From contig JBHLJY010000005.1 in the NCBI GenBank assembly GCA_048887225.1, positions 128,001 to 192,000 on the forward strand: a stretch of DNA of 64,000 nucleotides, in the 5' to 3' direction. How positions within the stretch are numbered: the first letter of the stretch is position 1; the number at the start of each line of letters is the position of its first letter. This document shows positions 5,451 through 63,900 of the stretch, piece after piece. Origin of the DNA: Candidatus Hodarchaeota archaeon (GTDB lineage Archaea; Asgardarchaeota; Lokiarchaeia; Sigyniarchaeales; SOKP01). A program made the translations under genes and the position numbers. Under the pieces are notes generated by a model, which had not been told where the DNA came from, ran no database searches, and saw only the letters and a program-made list of their open reading frames with translations.

Positions 5451-5542
5451 TAGATTTTTGTCTTATAACCAATTAAATTATCAAGGTTATACTTGTTTAA
5501 CTTAAGCGAGAAACCTTTCAAACTAATATATAAATTTTTCTA

Positions 5543-5812
5543 TTACGCTTTGGAAAAAGCAATACCTTCAATTCCCTGTATTCCATCAACTTGCCCGAAT
5601 AGCTCTTCAATCTTATCTGTACCTCCCCATTCTTCTGGATATCTTACTCGAACTCGAGCTTTTTTCAAGCCAAATGCAATAGGTAAAATTTCATAATGTT
5701 CAATGAGACAGGTATCAGGAAGTAGTTTTTTTATTTTTTCTATAAATTCTTCAAAGTCGATATCCGTATCTTCAGGAACAACATCAATTAAAGCAATATA
5801 TTGTCCTCCCAT
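5543..5812 (-). CDS. ef1b: Archaeal translation elongation factor EF-1 beta
   Basis: 89 aa, PIAFGLK motif; GAGG SD upstream; follows the HVO_2753-like gene as in many archaea. Confidence 0.9.
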   Translation of the reverse strand: MGGQYIALIDVVPEDTDIDFEEFIEKIKKLLPDTCLIEHYEILPIAFGLKKARVRVRYPEEWGGTDKIEELFGQVDGIQGIEGIAFSKA

Positions 5813-28197: not shown

Positions 28198-29154
28198 ATG
28201 ATTAAAAATTTGGATGTAATTTGTATAGGTGCAGCTCTTGTTGACATGGTTGCTAATGTAGAGAGGCATCCCCTAGAAGATGATGAAGTTTTTGTATCAG
28301 ATTTAAAGTTATTATCAGGAGGAGCGGCTGCCAATACTGCTTATGCGTGCGCTAAATTAGGATTGAAGACTGCGTTTATTGGAAAGTTAGGCCATAATGA
28401 TGAATTTGGAAATAAAATTATTAGCGATTTTAAAGAAGTTTCCGTGGATACATCGCTAATAAAATATTCTAATAATTATGGTACGGGATCGGCTTATGTT
28501 GCTTTAAATTCTGAGGGAAATAGGAGGATTTATGCACATAGTGGAGCTGCAAATTATCTTTCAAAAGATGATATAATAACTGAAGAGTTATTAAGAGGCA
28601 AGCTAATCTACTTAAGTAGTTTAAAAAATATAGAACCTTTTATTGAAGCCGCTGAAATTGGGAGAGAAAACTATATTCCCGTAATATTAAATCCTGGTAT
28701 GTTGATAATTGACCAAGGACTCGATAATATTATACAATTGTTTGAAAAAATTGATATACTTATATTATCTCAACGAGAATATATGACGCTTCTTAACATT
28801 CAAGGGCCAGAATTGAGGGAAGAAGTCATTTTAGATACATCAAATAATATTCTAAAATTAGGTATCAAAGTAATTATTATTACTATGGGTAGTAATGGTG
28901 CGTATTTACTAACTAAAAAAGATTCAGCAATAATTTCGGCAAAGAAAGTTAAAAATGTAATAGACACGACAGGGGCGGGTGATGCTTTTTCAGCAGGCTT
29001 TATTTTCAGATTTGTTCAACATTTAGGTTATGATTTTACGGAACTTAAATTTAACGTAGAATTTGGAAATCTTATTGCTGGAAGATGTATTCAAAAGTTA
29101 GGTGCCAGAAAGGGGATTCCTTCTCGTAAGGAATTTATGAATTTTATTGATTAA
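28198..29154 (+). CDS. PfkB family carbohydrate kinase
   Basis: GGAAAN.A...AKLG, DTTGAGDAF. Confidence 0.92.
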   Translation: MIKNLDVICIGAALVDMVANVERHPLEDDEVFVSDLKLLSGGAAANTAYACAKLGLKTAFIGKLGHNDEFGNKIISDFKEVSVDTSLIKYSNNYGTGSAYVALNSEGNRRIYAHSGAANYLSKDDIITEELLRGKLIYLSSLKNIEPFIEAAEIGRENYIPVILNPGMLIIDQGLDNIIQLFEKIDILILSQREYMTLLNIQGPELREEVILDTSNNILKLGIKVIIITMGSNGAYLLTKKDSAIISAKKVKNVIDTTGAGDAFSAGFIFRFVQHLGYDFTELKFNVEFGNLIAGRCIQKLGARKGIPSRKEFMNFID

Positions 29155-29230
29155 AGTTAAACAAAAAAGTTTATAACTTTTTAATTAAATAATTTTTCAA
29201 TTAGAAACTTATGTTTTAATTACCACTCCA

Positions 29231-60923: not shown

Positions 60924-61511
60924 TTAAATTTCTTCTTCGGGTGGCGATTTCTCTAAAGTAAAAAACATTGAAACAATTAAATAATAACCATTATGCCAAA
61001 GATAAAAGAATCCAATAACTAAACCCACAATCATAAAAATTATAAGCCCGACAAACAAAACTAACTGTCCTTGAGAGAAATCTTGCAAGAAAGTAAAAGA
61101 AATGCCAATAAAGAGTTCATAAAAGAAGGCAACTATTATACCAAGAATTATTGCTAAAACGCTTACCAATAAGCATATAGTTATAATTTGTATTGATATC
61201 CTATTTTTGTATTTAGAAAGTAAAACACGCTCACGAAAAATTGTCCTTAAAAAAAAAATGCGACCTTTTTTACTCATACCAATGCCAATAACTATTAACA
61301 CAAATAACCCAGCAAAAAGAGCCCCAATTATCGCAATCTGTAGACCAAGATTTAGACCTTGGAATAATTCTAACTTTCCTTCAGCCATAATTAGATCGGC
61401 AATCGTGTATACAACTCCTCCTATGGTTATAATACACGAAATAACAATTGCTATATAGAATATATTCGCTATGATTTTCTGGTAATTTGAATATATATTC
61501 ATTTCATTCAT
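60924..61511 (-). CDS. Hypothetical 4-TM membrane protein (paralog of 61557-62147)
   Basis: Shared DLIMAEGKLELF / LGLQIAIIG / LWHNGY motifs. Confidence 0.7.
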   Translation of the reverse strand: MNEMNIYSNYQKIIANIFYIAIVISCIITIGGVVYTIADLIMAEGKLELFQGLNLGLQIAIIGALFAGLFVLIVIGIGMSKKGRIFFLRTIFRERVLLSKYKNRISIQIITICLLVSVLAIILGIIVAFFYELFIGISFTFLQDFSQGQLVLFVGLIIFMIVGLVIGFFYLWHNGYYLIVSMFFTLEKSPPEEEI

Positions 61512-61556: not shown

Positions 61557-62147
61557 TTAATCTTCTTCTTCAAGCGAATATAATAATTTAATTATAAGTC
61601 CGTAGCCATTGAACCACATATAAACACAGCCAAAAGCCAATAAAGTTACAATAAAATATAAAATACTGATGGTTAATGCTATTTGCCCCCCCGATAAATT
61701 TTCAGTAATGCCACCAAGCGTAAATTCAGTACCACCAATGATAGAACGAAGAATTTCGTAAATAAGCGCAATTACGATACCTATTATTATGGCAAATAAA
61801 CTCAGCATTAAAGCTCCCGCAGCAAATTTTACAGTTTTTCTATTTTTATATTTATCAACAAGTTCTCTTGGTCTATAGATGATGTTTAATAGGGCTGAGA
61901 CACCTCTCCTAAATAATCCATAAAATAGAATCAATAGAAAAAAGAGTCCTGCTAAAATACCGCCGATTATTGCGATTTGAATTCCCAAACTGAGCCTTAG
62001 AAATAGTTCAGTTTTCCCTACAGCCATTATTATATCCAATATGGTCCAGATTAAGGATCCAATTATCATTATAAATGAAATAACAAAGGAAATATAAAGT
62101 ACAGTACCAGTTATTTTTTGTCTATTTGTGTATTTTATATCGTTCAT
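61557..62147 (-). CDS. Hypothetical 4-TM membrane protein
   Basis: DIIMAVGKTELF / LGIQIAIIG / MWFNGY. Confidence 0.7.
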   Translation of the reverse strand: MNDIKYTNRQKITGTVLYISFVISFIMIIGSLIWTILDIIMAVGKTELFLRLSLGIQIAIIGGILAGLFFLLILFYGLFRRGVSALLNIIYRPRELVDKYKNRKTVKFAAGALMLSLFAIIIGIVIALIYEILRSIIGGTEFTLGGITENLSGGQIALTISILYFIVTLLAFGCVYMWFNGYGLIIKLLYSLEEED

Positions 62148-62331: not shown

Positions 62332-63900
62332 TTATTCAGCATCCTTAATCTGGGTTAAATCATCAAAAATTTTGTATATATTTTGATCTTTTAATAAATC
62401 GTAGAGGTTTGCCGAAAAATTATAAATTTTATCGTATAATATATGACGATTTTGATTGGGTAGCCATTTTTTATCAACTTTACATAAATTCTCTGCCGCT
62501 TTTGCTATATCAGGGAATAGCCCTGCTCCTGAAGCTGCTAATATTGCAGCTCCTAAAGAGGTCGCTTCCTCAATTATATTACGTACACATGTAATACCTA
62601 ACACATCTGCGTAAATTTGATTCCAGAAATCTGAACGAGAACCTCCACCAGTAAGCAACAGTTCTTTCGGTTCAATATCAAGCTCTTTAAATATTTGGAT
62701 GTTTTTCTTCACTTCAAAGGCAACACCTTCAAGTACAGCCCGATATAGGTCTCTTCTTTGATGGCCTAGAGATAAACCAAAAATTAATCCTTTTGCATAT
62801 GGATTCCAGTGAGGAGCTCCAGCTCCAATTAAATGAGGGATTAAAATTAATCCATTTGCTCCTATGGGTGATTTTTCAGCTTCAGCAGTGATTATATTAT
62901 ATGGGTCTTGTCCCTCTTCAGCAGCCATACATTCTGGTTGACCTACTTGATCTCTAAACCATCGAAGTGTAGCTCCAGAAGTAAAGATACTCGCCTCTTG
63001 AACCCAAGAACCTGGAATCGCATGACAGCTACATAAAACTCTTTTTTTTGGGTCAAATTTTGGCTCATTTAAATATGCTAAAATAAAACTACCCGTTCCT
63101 GTTGTACACTTGATTTCTCCTGGAGAAACAACTCCTACTCCTAGCGCCGCAGATTGTTGATCTCCAGCACCAGTAATTACTAAAGTTTTATTATCAAAAT
63201 CAGTTTCATCATTAATTATTTCGCCAATATCGACTCCGCTTTCAAAAGGTTCAGGCATTTTATCTAAATCTATTCCCATTTCAGAGGCAATATCTTCTGA
63301 GTATCTTAAATTATTAATATCAAACAACATAGTTCTACTTAAATTACTATGATCACTAACAAATTTCCCAGTTAATTTATATATAATAAAATCTGAAACT
63401 AACAAAAATTTATGAGCTTTTTGATAAATATCAGGCTTCTTATCTTTAAACCATAATATTTTTGTAGAAGAAAAATAAGGATCTATTGTTAAACCCGTAA
63501 TTTTGTAAATTCTATCAAGACCTATTTTGTTTCTTATAAACTCAACTTGATCAGTCGTACGTCTATCTTGCCAAACTAAAGCATTATGGAGTGGATTACC
63601 TTCTTTATCTACTGGAACAACTGTTTCTCTTTAATCTTTCGGAAAGAAGTTTTAAACCGAAATTTGATTGGTGATAGAACAGCTAACTATTTCCGTCTTA
63701 TCAATCCCGCTTTTGCTTATAGCGTTTTTAATCGTATCTTTTATGGAAATCCACCATTCATTAGCGTCTTGCTCTACAAAAGAAGGTGAGGGATAATAGC
63801 TAGGATATTCTTTATAATCTGAACCAACAATAGCTCCAGCTAAATCAAAAATGTTTGTTCGACATCCTGTCGTACCAAGATCCAAAGATGCTACATACAT
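62332..63900 (-). CDS. FGGY-family carbohydrate kinase (glycerol kinase/xylulokinase-like), two exons 63900-63664 and 63630-62332, 511 aa after splicing
   Basis: LDLGTT, VEQD, ITNQ|RET, VWQDRRT, DPYFS.TK, GDQQSA, TGTGSF, GAPHW, LEGVAF, GGGS, EATSLGAA; only lesion is the 33-nt insert. Confidence 0.88.
63631..63663 (-). other. Candidate pre-mRNA intron, 33 nt, bulge-helix-bulge type
   Basis: ATTTCGGTTTAAAACTTCTTTCCGAAAGATTAA; central helix AATC/GATT, two AAA bulges, inner stem TTTCGG/CCGAAA; canonical cuts rejoin CAA|AGA. Confidence 0.85.

What the first reader, a model, noticed from the sequence alone, without database searches (positions are those of the whole stretch)
63631..63663. Candidate BHB-spliced pre-mRNA intron in a protein-coding sugar kinase gene
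Seen in sequence: the minus strand reads ...ATC ACC AAT CAA [ATTTCGGTTTAAAACTTCTTTCCGAAAGATTAA] AGA GAA ACA GTT.... The 33-nt insert has two in-frame TAA stops, so gene callers would report two fragments or a pseudogene. It folds as a bulge-helix-bulge: a 4-bp central helix AATC(63669-66)/GATT(63636-33), 3-nt bulges AAA(63665-63) and AAA(63632-30), and a 6-bp intron stem TTTCGG/CCGAAA with a 14-nt loop. There is one outer C-G pair and a more distal exon-exon stem TAGCTGTT/AACAGTTG. Established: archaeal tRNA splicing endonuclease (EndA) cuts after the second nucleotide of each bulge. Applying that rule removes exactly these 33 nt and restores ITNQ-RET, the glycerol-kinase motif whose Arg and Glu bind substrate, giving an otherwise intact 511-aa ORF. 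The well-characterised archaeal mRNA intron is the one in crenarchaeal cbf5. Inference: this organism splices a metabolic mRNA with its tRNA machinery (EndA plus RtcB-type ligase). That could be a post-transcriptional switch and a hidden class of mRNA introns misannotated as pseudogenes, comparable to non-spliceosomal HAC1/XBP1 splicing. I know of no description of this in Asgard metabolic genes but cannot check the literature.
Basis: partly seen in the sequence, partly recalled or inferred. Interest (0 to 1): 0.96.

Follow-up and report, generated by a model that had tools for sequence, protein, structure and literature searches.

The report
tRNA-type mini-intron in Asgard kinase gene
A glycerol-kinase-like gene of an Asgard (Lokiarchaeia-type) archaeon is broken by a 33-base insert shaped like an archaeal tRNA intron. 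Relatives keep it at the same spot, in lengths that often do not fit the reading frame, so the mRNA is very probably cut and rejoined by the tRNA-splicing enzymes, which papers report for only one archaeal coding gene (cbf5).

Summary
A 33-nt insert (window 63631-63663, minus strand) with two in-frame TAA codons splits an otherwise intact 511-aa glycerol-kinase-like FGGY gene. It folds as a 4-bp helix flanked by two AAA bulges plus a 6-bp intron stem. Only 2 of 200,000 shuffles of the insert do as well.

Nineteen independent gene copies carry an insert at exactly this site (NQ|RE), in lengths of 29, 30, 32 or 33 nt: 7 of 143 genomes with the gene (four genera) and 12 metagenome contigs. The helices covary: 96% of cells pair and 6 of 11 pairs change on both sides. 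Within the 33/32-nt class only loop bases vary. Both exons are under strong purifying selection (dN/dS 0.04-0.16). Cutting after the second bulge base restores TNQ|RET in every length class.

The genome encodes an alpha/beta splicing endonuclease with the broad-specificity loop, archease and RtcB. The RtcB gene carries such an insert too.

No RNA data could be obtained, so splicing itself is inferred. The proposed regulatory switch and the distal exon-exon stem are not supported. This scan has flagged the same kind of insert many times before, in other genes and genomes including this one. The papers I searched describe only cbf5.

The parts
62332..63900 (-). Whole interrupted gene: FGGY kinase, glycerol-kinase-like (ATG 63900-63898, stop TAA 62334-62332). 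511 aa after removal of the insert.
   Evidence: Pfam FGGY_N 1.3e-64 and FGGY_C 1.9e-35. Best solved relative is T. kodakarensis glycerol kinase 6k78, E 3e-76.
63664..63900 (-). Exon 1 (237 nt, 79 codons, ends ...ITNQ).
   Evidence: dN/dS 0.06-0.16 between intron-bearing copies.
63631..63663 (-). 33-nt BHB mini-intron with two in-frame TAA codons.
   Evidence: Same-site inserts of 29, 30, 32 and 33 nt in relatives.
62332..63630 (-). Exon 2 (432 codons plus stop, begins RETVVP...).
   Evidence: dN/dS 0.04-0.09 between intron-bearing copies. The first in-frame start codon listed is TTG at 63405, 75 codons into the exon.
63666..63669 (-). Central 4-bp helix, 5' strand AAUC (exon 1, Asn codon plus C of the Gln codon).
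   Evidence: The pair at columns 35-67 switches U-A to C-G together with the intron partner (9 against 8 sequences).
63633..63636 (-). Central 4-bp helix, 3' strand GAUU (intron).
63663..63665 (-). 5' bulge AAA. Predicted cut between 63664 and 63663.
   Evidence: Cut rule from PMC2738675. Invariant in 17 of 17 sequences.
63630..63632 (-). 3' bulge AAA. Predicted cut between 63631 and 63630.
63657..63662 (-). Intron stem, 5' strand UUUCGG.
   Evidence: 5 of 6 pairs change on both sides across relatives and 98% of cells are paired.
63637..63642 (-). Intron stem, 3' strand CCGAAA.
63643..63656 (-). 14-nt intron loop, the only part that varies within the 33/32-nt class.
   Evidence: 6 of 14 loop columns vary against 0 of 19 structural intron columns.
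63629..63629 (-). G of the single invariant outer pair C63670-G63629. The outer helix is otherwise weak, so the motif is a relaxed form.
   Evidence: C-G in 17 of 17, but fixed by the search pattern in 10 of the rows.

Best explanation
The 33 nt at 63631-63663 are an archaeal bulge-helix-bulge (tRNA-type) intron inside the coding sequence of a glycerol-kinase-like gene.

In the transcript, exon bases AAUC pair with intron bases GAUU. This 4-bp helix is flanked by two AAA bulges and is stacked on a 6-bp intron hairpin. The cell's heterotetrameric (alpha-beta)2 splicing endonuclease cuts after the second base of each bulge. RtcB, with archease, joins the exons and probably circularises the 33-mer. 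The mature mRNA then reads ...ITNQ|RETVVP... and encodes a 511-aa kinase. Unspliced RNA yields only an 82-aa peptide.

Shown here: the structure, its conservation and covariation, selection on both exons, and the presence of the enzymes. Inferred: the cutting and joining themselves. The intron is old and polymorphic. It occurs in four clades of the gene tree beside intronless sisters, so it has been lost, or moved with flanking exon sequence, several times.
For: 1. The structure matches the canonical geometry and arises in 2 of 200,000 shuffles.

2. Of 143 genomes of the order with the orthologue, 7 from four genera carry an insert at the identical NQ|RE site. A metagenome pattern scan, which left the intron interior free, found 12 more kinase copies.

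3. Insert lengths are 29, 30, 32 and 33 nt. The 29-nt and 32-nt forms shift the frame, yet exon 2 stays open: 432 aa to its stop in L085, and 389 aa to the contig end in L079. The BHB cut rule restores TNQ|RET in all four classes.

4. Covariation on 17 sequences: 96.2% of cells paired, against 25-57% when partners are slid. Six of 11 pairs change on both sides, including the exon-intron pair in the central helix. No shuffle of 500 reaches the observed score (7-genome set).

5. Within the 33/32-nt class, 0 of 19 structural intron positions vary. By contrast 6 of 14 loop positions and 14 of 19 flanking third-codon positions vary.

6. dN/dS is 0.04-0.16 for both exons in pairs that both carry the intron, including a pair with saturated dS (G017/G055).

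7. The junction codons are ACC, CAA and AGR in 7 of 7 genome-derived intron alleles. Intronless alleles use them in 23%, 60% and 58% of cases. These are the bases needed for the C-G outer pair and the AAA bulges.

8. Machinery in the same genome: an EndA alpha subunit with Tyr/His/Lys and the K-P-R of the Crenarchaea-specific loop; a beta paralogue with the catalytic His replaced by Ser (loop function from PMC3241643; Asgard (alpha-beta)2 type from PMC5829648); RtcB; and archease.

9. The same genome has like inserts in rtcB, uL11 and a cold-shock gene.
Against: The outer (exon-exon) helix is a single C-G pair followed by an internal loop, so the motif is a relaxed form rather than a textbook hBHBh'. 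The g2 variant has an A.C mismatch in the central helix. Two of the 12 metagenomic intron-bearing copies (L078, L081) are truncated gene fragments, so some carriers are dead. The sequences are related, so the shuffle controls overstate significance. Ten rows of the 17-sequence alignment were selected with a pattern that fixed the exon junction bases.
Confidence: 0.85

Rival explanations
1. The BHB is recognised and cut by EndA but the exons are not efficiently rejoined. The insert would then act mainly as a knock-down or decay signal, or a conditional switch, rather than as a constitutively spliced intron.
For: The structure and enzymes are the same as for the main reading. Nothing here measures ligation.
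Against: Exon 2 is under selection as strong as in intronless genes. The cut rule restores the frame in all four length classes. Both facts only matter if the joined mRNA is translated. No ligand- or condition-sensing element is visible in a 13-14-nt loop that varies freely.
Confidence: 0.06
2. The gene is a pseudogene, inactivated by a small insertion with stop codons.
For: There are two in-frame TAA codons. Two metagenomic carriers are truncated fragments. Only 7 of 143 genomes carry the insert.
Against: dN/dS is 0.04-0.16 in both exons between carriers, even at saturated dS. The full-length genes have no other lesion. It is the only close orthologue in the genome, the next paralogue being 33% identical. 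The intron helices are conserved while the loop and synonymous sites drift.
Confidence: 0.03
3. Ribosomes bypass the insert (programmed translational hopping, as in phage T4 gene 60 or yeast mitochondrial 'byps'), with the hairpin as a stimulator.
For: It is a short insert with a stable hairpin and stops, and variable lengths would be tolerated. In the g2 variant the codon before exon 2 is CAA, like the take-off codon.
Against: In three of the four classes the codon at the landing site is UAA, not CAA, so take-off and landing codons do not match. No stop codon directly follows the take-off codon. Covariation involves an exon-intron 4-bp helix with two symmetric 3-nt bulges, which bypassing does not need.
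Confidence: 0.03
4. The gene is a true split gene, with an 82-aa N-terminal piece and a separately initiated C-terminal piece that assemble.
For: Both parts are conserved.
Against: Exon 2 has no start codon for 75 codons. The break lies between Gln and the Arg-Glu pair that aligns to the QRET motif of glycerol kinase. The read-through tail of exon 1 differs in every length class. 136 orthologues are contiguous.
Confidence: 0.02
5. The insert is an assembly or binning artefact, or an element removed at the DNA level.
For: The genomes are metagenome-assembled. The G074 copy is a mosaic that could be a chimeric join.
Against: Identical or near-identical inserts appear in assemblies from different projects and sites. 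The insert has no other copy in the genome.
Confidence: 0.01

Closest known systems
BHB intron in the cbf5 (pseudouridine synthase) pre-mRNA of Crenarchaeota (Watanabe 2002; Yoshinari 2006; Yokobori 2009, PMC2738675)
   Same: It is a short intron inside an archaeal coding sequence. It has a relaxed BHB at the exon-intron borders, cuts between the 2nd and 3rd bulge bases, dependence on a hetero-oligomeric EndA, and a patchy gain/loss distribution among relatives.
   Different: The gene is different (a metabolic FGGY kinase) and so is the phylum (Promethearchaeota/Asgard). The two introns share no sequence relationship. cbf5 splicing is shown by cDNA and in vitro cleavage, whereas splicing here is inferred. 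Here four length classes sit at one site, and there is evidence that the intron travels with flanking exon sequence.
Archaeal tRNA and rRNA BHB introns (EndA + RtcB pathway)
   Same: The motif geometry is the same (3-nt bulge, 4-bp helix, 3-nt bulge, inner hairpin), and presumably so are the enzymes. Asgard tRNA genes are heavily interrupted (bioRxiv 10.64898/2026.10.13.758758). ARAGORN calls introns in 15 of 32 tRNAs here.
   Different: The host RNA is an mRNA. The exon strand of the helix is made of codons, so the motif constrains synonymous codon choice.
BHB intron in the 5' UTR of Haloferax volcanii HVO_1309 (Schwarz 2020, PMC7714728)
   Same: An mRNA is processed by the tRNA splicing endonuclease, with a circular intron detected.
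   Different: That intron lies in the untranslated leader and does not interrupt a reading frame.
HAC1/XBP1 unconventional splicing (IRE1 + Trl1/RtcB)
   Same: Protein-only, structure-guided excision of a small intron from an mRNA. RtcB is the ligase in metazoa. Removal changes the reading frame.
   Different: The nuclease (IRE1) and its twin stem-loop substrate are different. That system is a stress-regulated switch, and no regulation is shown here.

Membership tests
Archaeal BHB (EndA-dependent) intron | Two 3-nt bulges on opposite strands separated by a 4-bp helix. | tested here: met
   MFE fold. The central helix is paired in 92.6% of cells across 17 sequences, with one compensatory pair. 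Both bulges are AAA in 17 of 17. The g2 variant has one A.C mismatch.
Archaeal BHB (EndA-dependent) intron | Flanking helices: inner (intron) h' and outer (exon-exon) h. | tested here: inconclusive
   The inner stem of 6 bp or more is 98% paired, with 5 of 6 pairs covarying. The outer helix is one invariant C-G pair followed by an internal loop. The distal exon stem is not conserved in register (62.5% paired) and is not clearly stronger than in intronless alleles. This is therefore a relaxed form.
Archaeal BHB (EndA-dependent) intron | Cutting between bulge bases 2 and 3 yields a functional joined RNA. | tested here: met
   In silico only. The rule removes 29, 30, 32 or 33 nt and restores TNQ|RET and an open 432-aa exon 2. 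Rule from PMC2738675.
Archaeal BHB (EndA-dependent) intron | The host encodes an endonuclease able to cut relaxed motifs, plus a 3'-P RNA ligase. | tested here: met
   EndA alpha with the catalytic Y/H/K and K-P-R aligned to the K44 and R46 residues of the loop in A. pernix. A beta subunit lacking the catalytic His. RtcB and archease are present, but the only rtcB gene is itself interrupted.
Archaeal BHB (EndA-dependent) intron | The intron is absent from mature RNA, and a circular or linear excised intron is detectable. | not testable with these tools
   No RNA run was listed for this sequence.
Pseudogene | Relaxed selection and further disabling mutations downstream of the lesion. | tested here: not met
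   dN/dS 0.04-0.16. Exons are intact in carriers from four clades.
Programmed translational bypass (T4 gene 60 type) | Matching take-off and landing codons, with a stop directly after the take-off codon. | tested here: not met
   Take-off CAA is followed by AUU. The landing-site codon is UAA in three of four length classes.
Glycerol kinase (GlpK, FGGY family) | Score above the equivalog cut-off, and the substrate-binding motifs. | tested here: inconclusive
   TIGR01311 scores 323 bits against a cut-off of 590, and XylB scores 347 against 380. The best solved relatives are all glycerol kinases, and the NQRET, VWQDRRT and GDQQ motifs align. The substrate was not tested and the neighbouring genes are uninformative.

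The most novel reading that the evidence does not exclude
Lokiarchaeia-type Asgard archaea routinely interrupt protein-coding genes, including metabolic genes, ribosomal protein genes and the RNA ligase gene rtcB itself, with 26-45-nt BHB mini-introns that the tRNA-splicing enzymes remove. These introns would be polymorphic within genera and would spread or vanish by recombination of intron-bearing and intronless alleles. This kinase intron would then be one well-resolved example of a general, unpublished layer of mRNA splicing in the closest archaeal relatives of eukaryotes.
Probability: 0.6. Interest if true: 0.88.

Novelty: new member of a known kind. Interest (0 to 1): 0.72.

Why it matters
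Papers report protein-dependent (BHB) splicing of an archaeal coding sequence for one gene only, cbf5 in Crenarchaeota (PMC2738675). A 2020 study still counts that as the single case (PMC7714728). Here a conserved intron sits in a metabolic gene of an Asgard archaeon, with several length variants and clear covariation. This shows that the tRNA-splicing machinery is very likely used on mRNAs in the lineage closest to eukaryotes.

In practice, such genes are mis-annotated as pseudogenes or fragments. That distorts metabolic reconstructions of Asgard genomes, so gene callers need a BHB-aware step.

In evolutionary terms, the presence/absence polymorphism and the mosaic allele give a tractable case for studying how such introns are gained, lost and moved. 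The interrupted rtcB gene raises the question of how a cell makes the ligase that its own ligase mRNA needs.

Tried and rejected
1. RNA evidence. A search for sequencing runs holding window 63350-63900 listed no RNA holder.

2. Genome-wide census. I scanned both strands of the 3.27-Mb genome for BHB geometry whose removal fuses two open frames. The exact cut sites gave no more hits (about 2,000) than cut sites shifted by 1 nt. Hairpins at ordinary gene-gene junctions dominate, and the true rtcB intron failed my ORF filter. Without homology information the scan cannot count introns, so I dropped it.

3. It is not conserved in register. Duplex energies of intron-bearing and intronless alleles overlap (median -8.2 against -7.3 kcal/mol, uncorrected p 0.036).

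4. BHB motifs of this genome's tRNA introns. ARAGORN boundaries were too unreliable for a comparison with my simple matcher.

5. A mobile repeated element. blastn-short finds no second copy of the insert in the genome.

6. Gene neighbourhood as a clue to substrate. The neighbours are SRP54, NAD kinase, FEN1, CDC48, a HerA-like ATPase, two unknown membrane proteins and an acyltransferase-like protein, which is uninformative.

7. Whether the G074 mosaic is recombination or a chimeric contig. There is a single switch point and the upstream flank is unlike both candidate parents, so I could not decide.

Full report
**What is there**

On the minus strand of the window an ATG at 63900 opens a frame that reads MYVASLDLGTTG...SITNQ and then runs into ISV-stop. 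After 33 nt the same frame resumes with RETVVPVDKEGNPLHNALVWQDRRT and stays open for 432 codons, to a TAA at 62334-62332. Reading the two internal TAA codons through gives a 523-position translation. It matches FGGY_N (1.3e-64) and FGGY_C (1.9e-35) end to end.

The best solved relatives are all glycerol kinases. The top hit is Thermococcus kodakarensis 6k78 (E 3e-76). That alignment has an exact 11-residue gap between TN and QRET. The protein stays below NCBIfam's equivalog cut-offs for both GlpK and XylB, so I call it glycerol-kinase-like.

**The structure**

An unconstrained fold of 86 nt reproduces the proposed motif. AAUC (63669-66) pairs with GAUU (63636-33). An AAA bulge (63665-63) follows, then the stem UUUCGG/CCGAAA with a 14-nt loop, then a second AAA (63632-30). 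On the outer side the program draws a 3x3 internal loop. The alternative is the single pair C63670-G63629. Either way the outer helix is weak, which makes this a relaxed form of the motif.

I shuffled the 33 nt in place 200,000 times. Only 2 shuffles gave the central helix plus a stem of 6 bp or more in the register that restores the frame.

**Who carries it**

Contig titles of the closest relatives name Promethearchaeota/Promethearchaeia MAGs, so the organism is a Lokiarchaeia-type Asgard archaeon. Of 154 genomes of the same order, 143 have the orthologue, and 7 of these have stops at this spot. I fetched and translated them.
- G000 and G002 (same genus): 33 nt.
- G074 (another genus): 33 nt.
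- G111 and G125 (third genus): 30 nt.
- G017 and G055 (fourth genus): 30 nt.

All inserts lie exactly between NQ and RE. All other orthologues read TNQRET without a gap.

A pattern scan of metagenome contigs specified only exon bases and left 27-33 free positions. It returned 15 hits. Twelve were this kinase with an insert and 3 were unrelated chance matches. The new forms include a 29-nt intron (L074, L085) and a 32-nt one (L079), which is the 33-mer with one loop base missing. In these two classes the insert shifts the frame. Even so, exon 2 is open for 432 aa to its stop in L085, and for 389 aa to the contig end in L079. Applying the cut rule restores TNQ|RET in all four length classes.

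**Covariation**

On an alignment of 17 distinct sequences, the BHB I wrote down has 96.2% of cells paired. Sliding the 3' partners by 1-3 columns drops this to 25-57%. Six of 11 pairs change on both sides, and none of 500 shuffles reaches the observed covariation score. The 7-genome set gives the same picture.

The most telling pair is in the central helix. The third base of the Asn codon (U or C, an exon base) changes together with its intron partner (A or G), in 9 against 8 sequences.

Within the 33/32-nt class:
- none of the 19 structural intron positions varies;
- 6 of 14 loop positions vary;
- 14 of 19 flanking third-codon positions vary.

The sequences are related, so these controls overstate significance. 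The direction is still unambiguous.

**Selection on the gene**

Pairs in which both members carry the intron give dN/dS of 0.04-0.16 for exon 1 and exon 2 alike. This includes G017/G055, where synonymous sites are saturated. That excludes decay of exon 2.

The junction codons are ACC-AAY-CAA|AGR in all 7 genome-derived carriers. Intronless alleles use ACC in 23%, CAA in 60% and AGR in 58% of cases. The metagenome rows are not counted here, because the pattern fixed these bases. These are exactly the bases that make the outer C-G pair and the two AAA bulges. The RNA motif therefore constrains synonymous codon choice.

**History**

On a quick maximum-likelihood tree of 56 spliced proteins the carriers fall in four clades, each beside intronless sisters. 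At least 3 changes are forced by well-supported branches. Metagenomic 33-nt carriers sit next to several intronless lineages of the window's own genus in a tree of the 5' part of the gene. The intron is therefore polymorphic within a genus.

The G074 gene is a mosaic. Bases 1 to about 240 are 78-88% identical to G000 and only 68-72% identical to its sister L050. From base 600 to the end it is 97-100% identical to intronless L050. The 5' tree moves it next to G000. There is a single switch point, and the upstream flank matches neither parent. I cannot tell recombination, in which the intron travels with flanking exon, from a chimeric contig. In either case the 5' part is a further independent lineage with the intron: three loop changes and no helix change.

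**Machinery**

The genome has two EndA paralogues of 201 aa.
- The first aligns best to the catalytic subunit of Aeropyrum pernix EndA (3p1z_B, 5e-35). It keeps Tyr, His and Lys. It also keeps K-P-R at the position of K44 and R46 in the Crenarchaea-specific loop, which confers broad substrate range (PMC3241643).
- The second has Ser in place of the catalytic His, as expected for a structural beta subunit.

This is the (alpha-beta)2 type reported for Asgard archaea (PMC5829648). Archease lies next to rtcB. The only rtcB gene is itself split between GGVGY and DINCG by 29 nt. These fold as UUGG/CCAA with bulges AUA and AAA and a 9-bp stem. I also saw the uL11 gene with its N-terminal part in three pieces, and a cold-shock gene with a 30-nt insert between TGHVK and WFDYRKGYGF.

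**Rivals**

- A pseudogene is excluded by selection and by intactness in four clades. Two metagenomic carriers are truncated fragments, so dead copies do exist.
- Translational bypass would need matching take-off and landing codons. The landing codon is UAA in three of four classes, and the symmetric bulges have no role in bypassing.
- A two-piece enzyme has no start codon for exon 2 within 75 codons.
- An assembly artefact is excluded by independent assemblies.
- What remains open is efficiency and regulation. Nothing here shows a switch.

**Known or new**

In the searchable literature, BHB splicing of an archaeal coding sequence is documented only for cbf5 (PMC2738675), and PMC7714728 says so explicitly in 2020. 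That paper adds a 5' UTR intron in Haloferax. A 2026 preprint on Asgard tRNA introns (10.64898/2026.10.13.758758) and a 2026 review of non-canonical splicing (PMC13149111) do not mention mRNA introns in Asgard archaea.

The notes of this scan show that the same kind of insert has been flagged many times in Asgard genomes, including other genes of this genome. One note reports environmental RNA support for another gene, which I did not check. On its own merits this is a new member of a known kind. The mechanism is that of cbf5. The gene, the phylum, the four length classes at one site and the allele mosaic are new.

**Verdict**

Splicing itself awaits RNA evidence.

Noticed in passing
G000:C13:33313-34649 (L072:1440-1540): The only rtcB gene of the genome is split between GGVGY and DINCG by a frameshifting 29-nt insert. 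The insert folds as a BHB (UUGG/CCAA, bulges AUA and AAA, 9-bp stem). The ligase mRNA would therefore need the ligase to mature. Archease lies directly downstream on the opposite strand (C13:34661-35080).
   Followed up: partly
G000:C4:65449-65720 (minus strand): The uL11 gene matches the Pfam N-domain only from profile position 21. Upstream, the pieces MSKKGKVVVKALVTGG, ..SGGPPIGPA and LGPTGINIKDV lie in different frames or are separated by stops, which fits two short inserts.
   Followed up: partly
G000:C2:11381-11660 (minus strand): One of five cold-shock genes has 30 nt with two stops between TGHVK and WFDYRKGYGF. The borders GUGA.AA|A and UCAC.UC|U form a perfect 4-bp central helix.
   Followed up: partly
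L043 (G074, JAZGEW010000008.1) gene positions 1-600: The kinase gene is a mosaic. The 5' part with the intron resembles the window's genus, while the 3' 950 nt are 97-100% identical to an intronless allele (L050). This is either recombination that carried the intron or a chimeric contig.
   Followed up: partly
L078:1889-2452 and 5508-5690; L081:108-377: Truncated fragments of the kinase gene that still carry the 33-nt intron (residues 1-188 and 70-159), plus a second partial copy without the intron site (residues 1-61). L078 is from the LAZR marine-sediment assembly.
   Followed up: partly
window 60924-61511 and 61557-62147 (minus strand): Two tandem paralogous genes for ~195-aa multi-pass membrane proteins lie directly downstream of the kinase. 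Neither matches a Pfam family.
   Followed up: no
whole genome G000: ARAGORN finds only 32 tRNA genes in a 98%-complete genome and calls introns in 15 of them, several at non-canonical positions. This suggests heavily interrupted tRNA genes that standard tools miss.
   Followed up: no
window 29149-29191 (plus strand): A 43-nt stretch has BHB-like borders (UUUA/UAAA, 7-bp stem) and its removal would fuse open frames of 318 and 366 codons. It may just be a hairpin at a gene junction.
   Followed up: no
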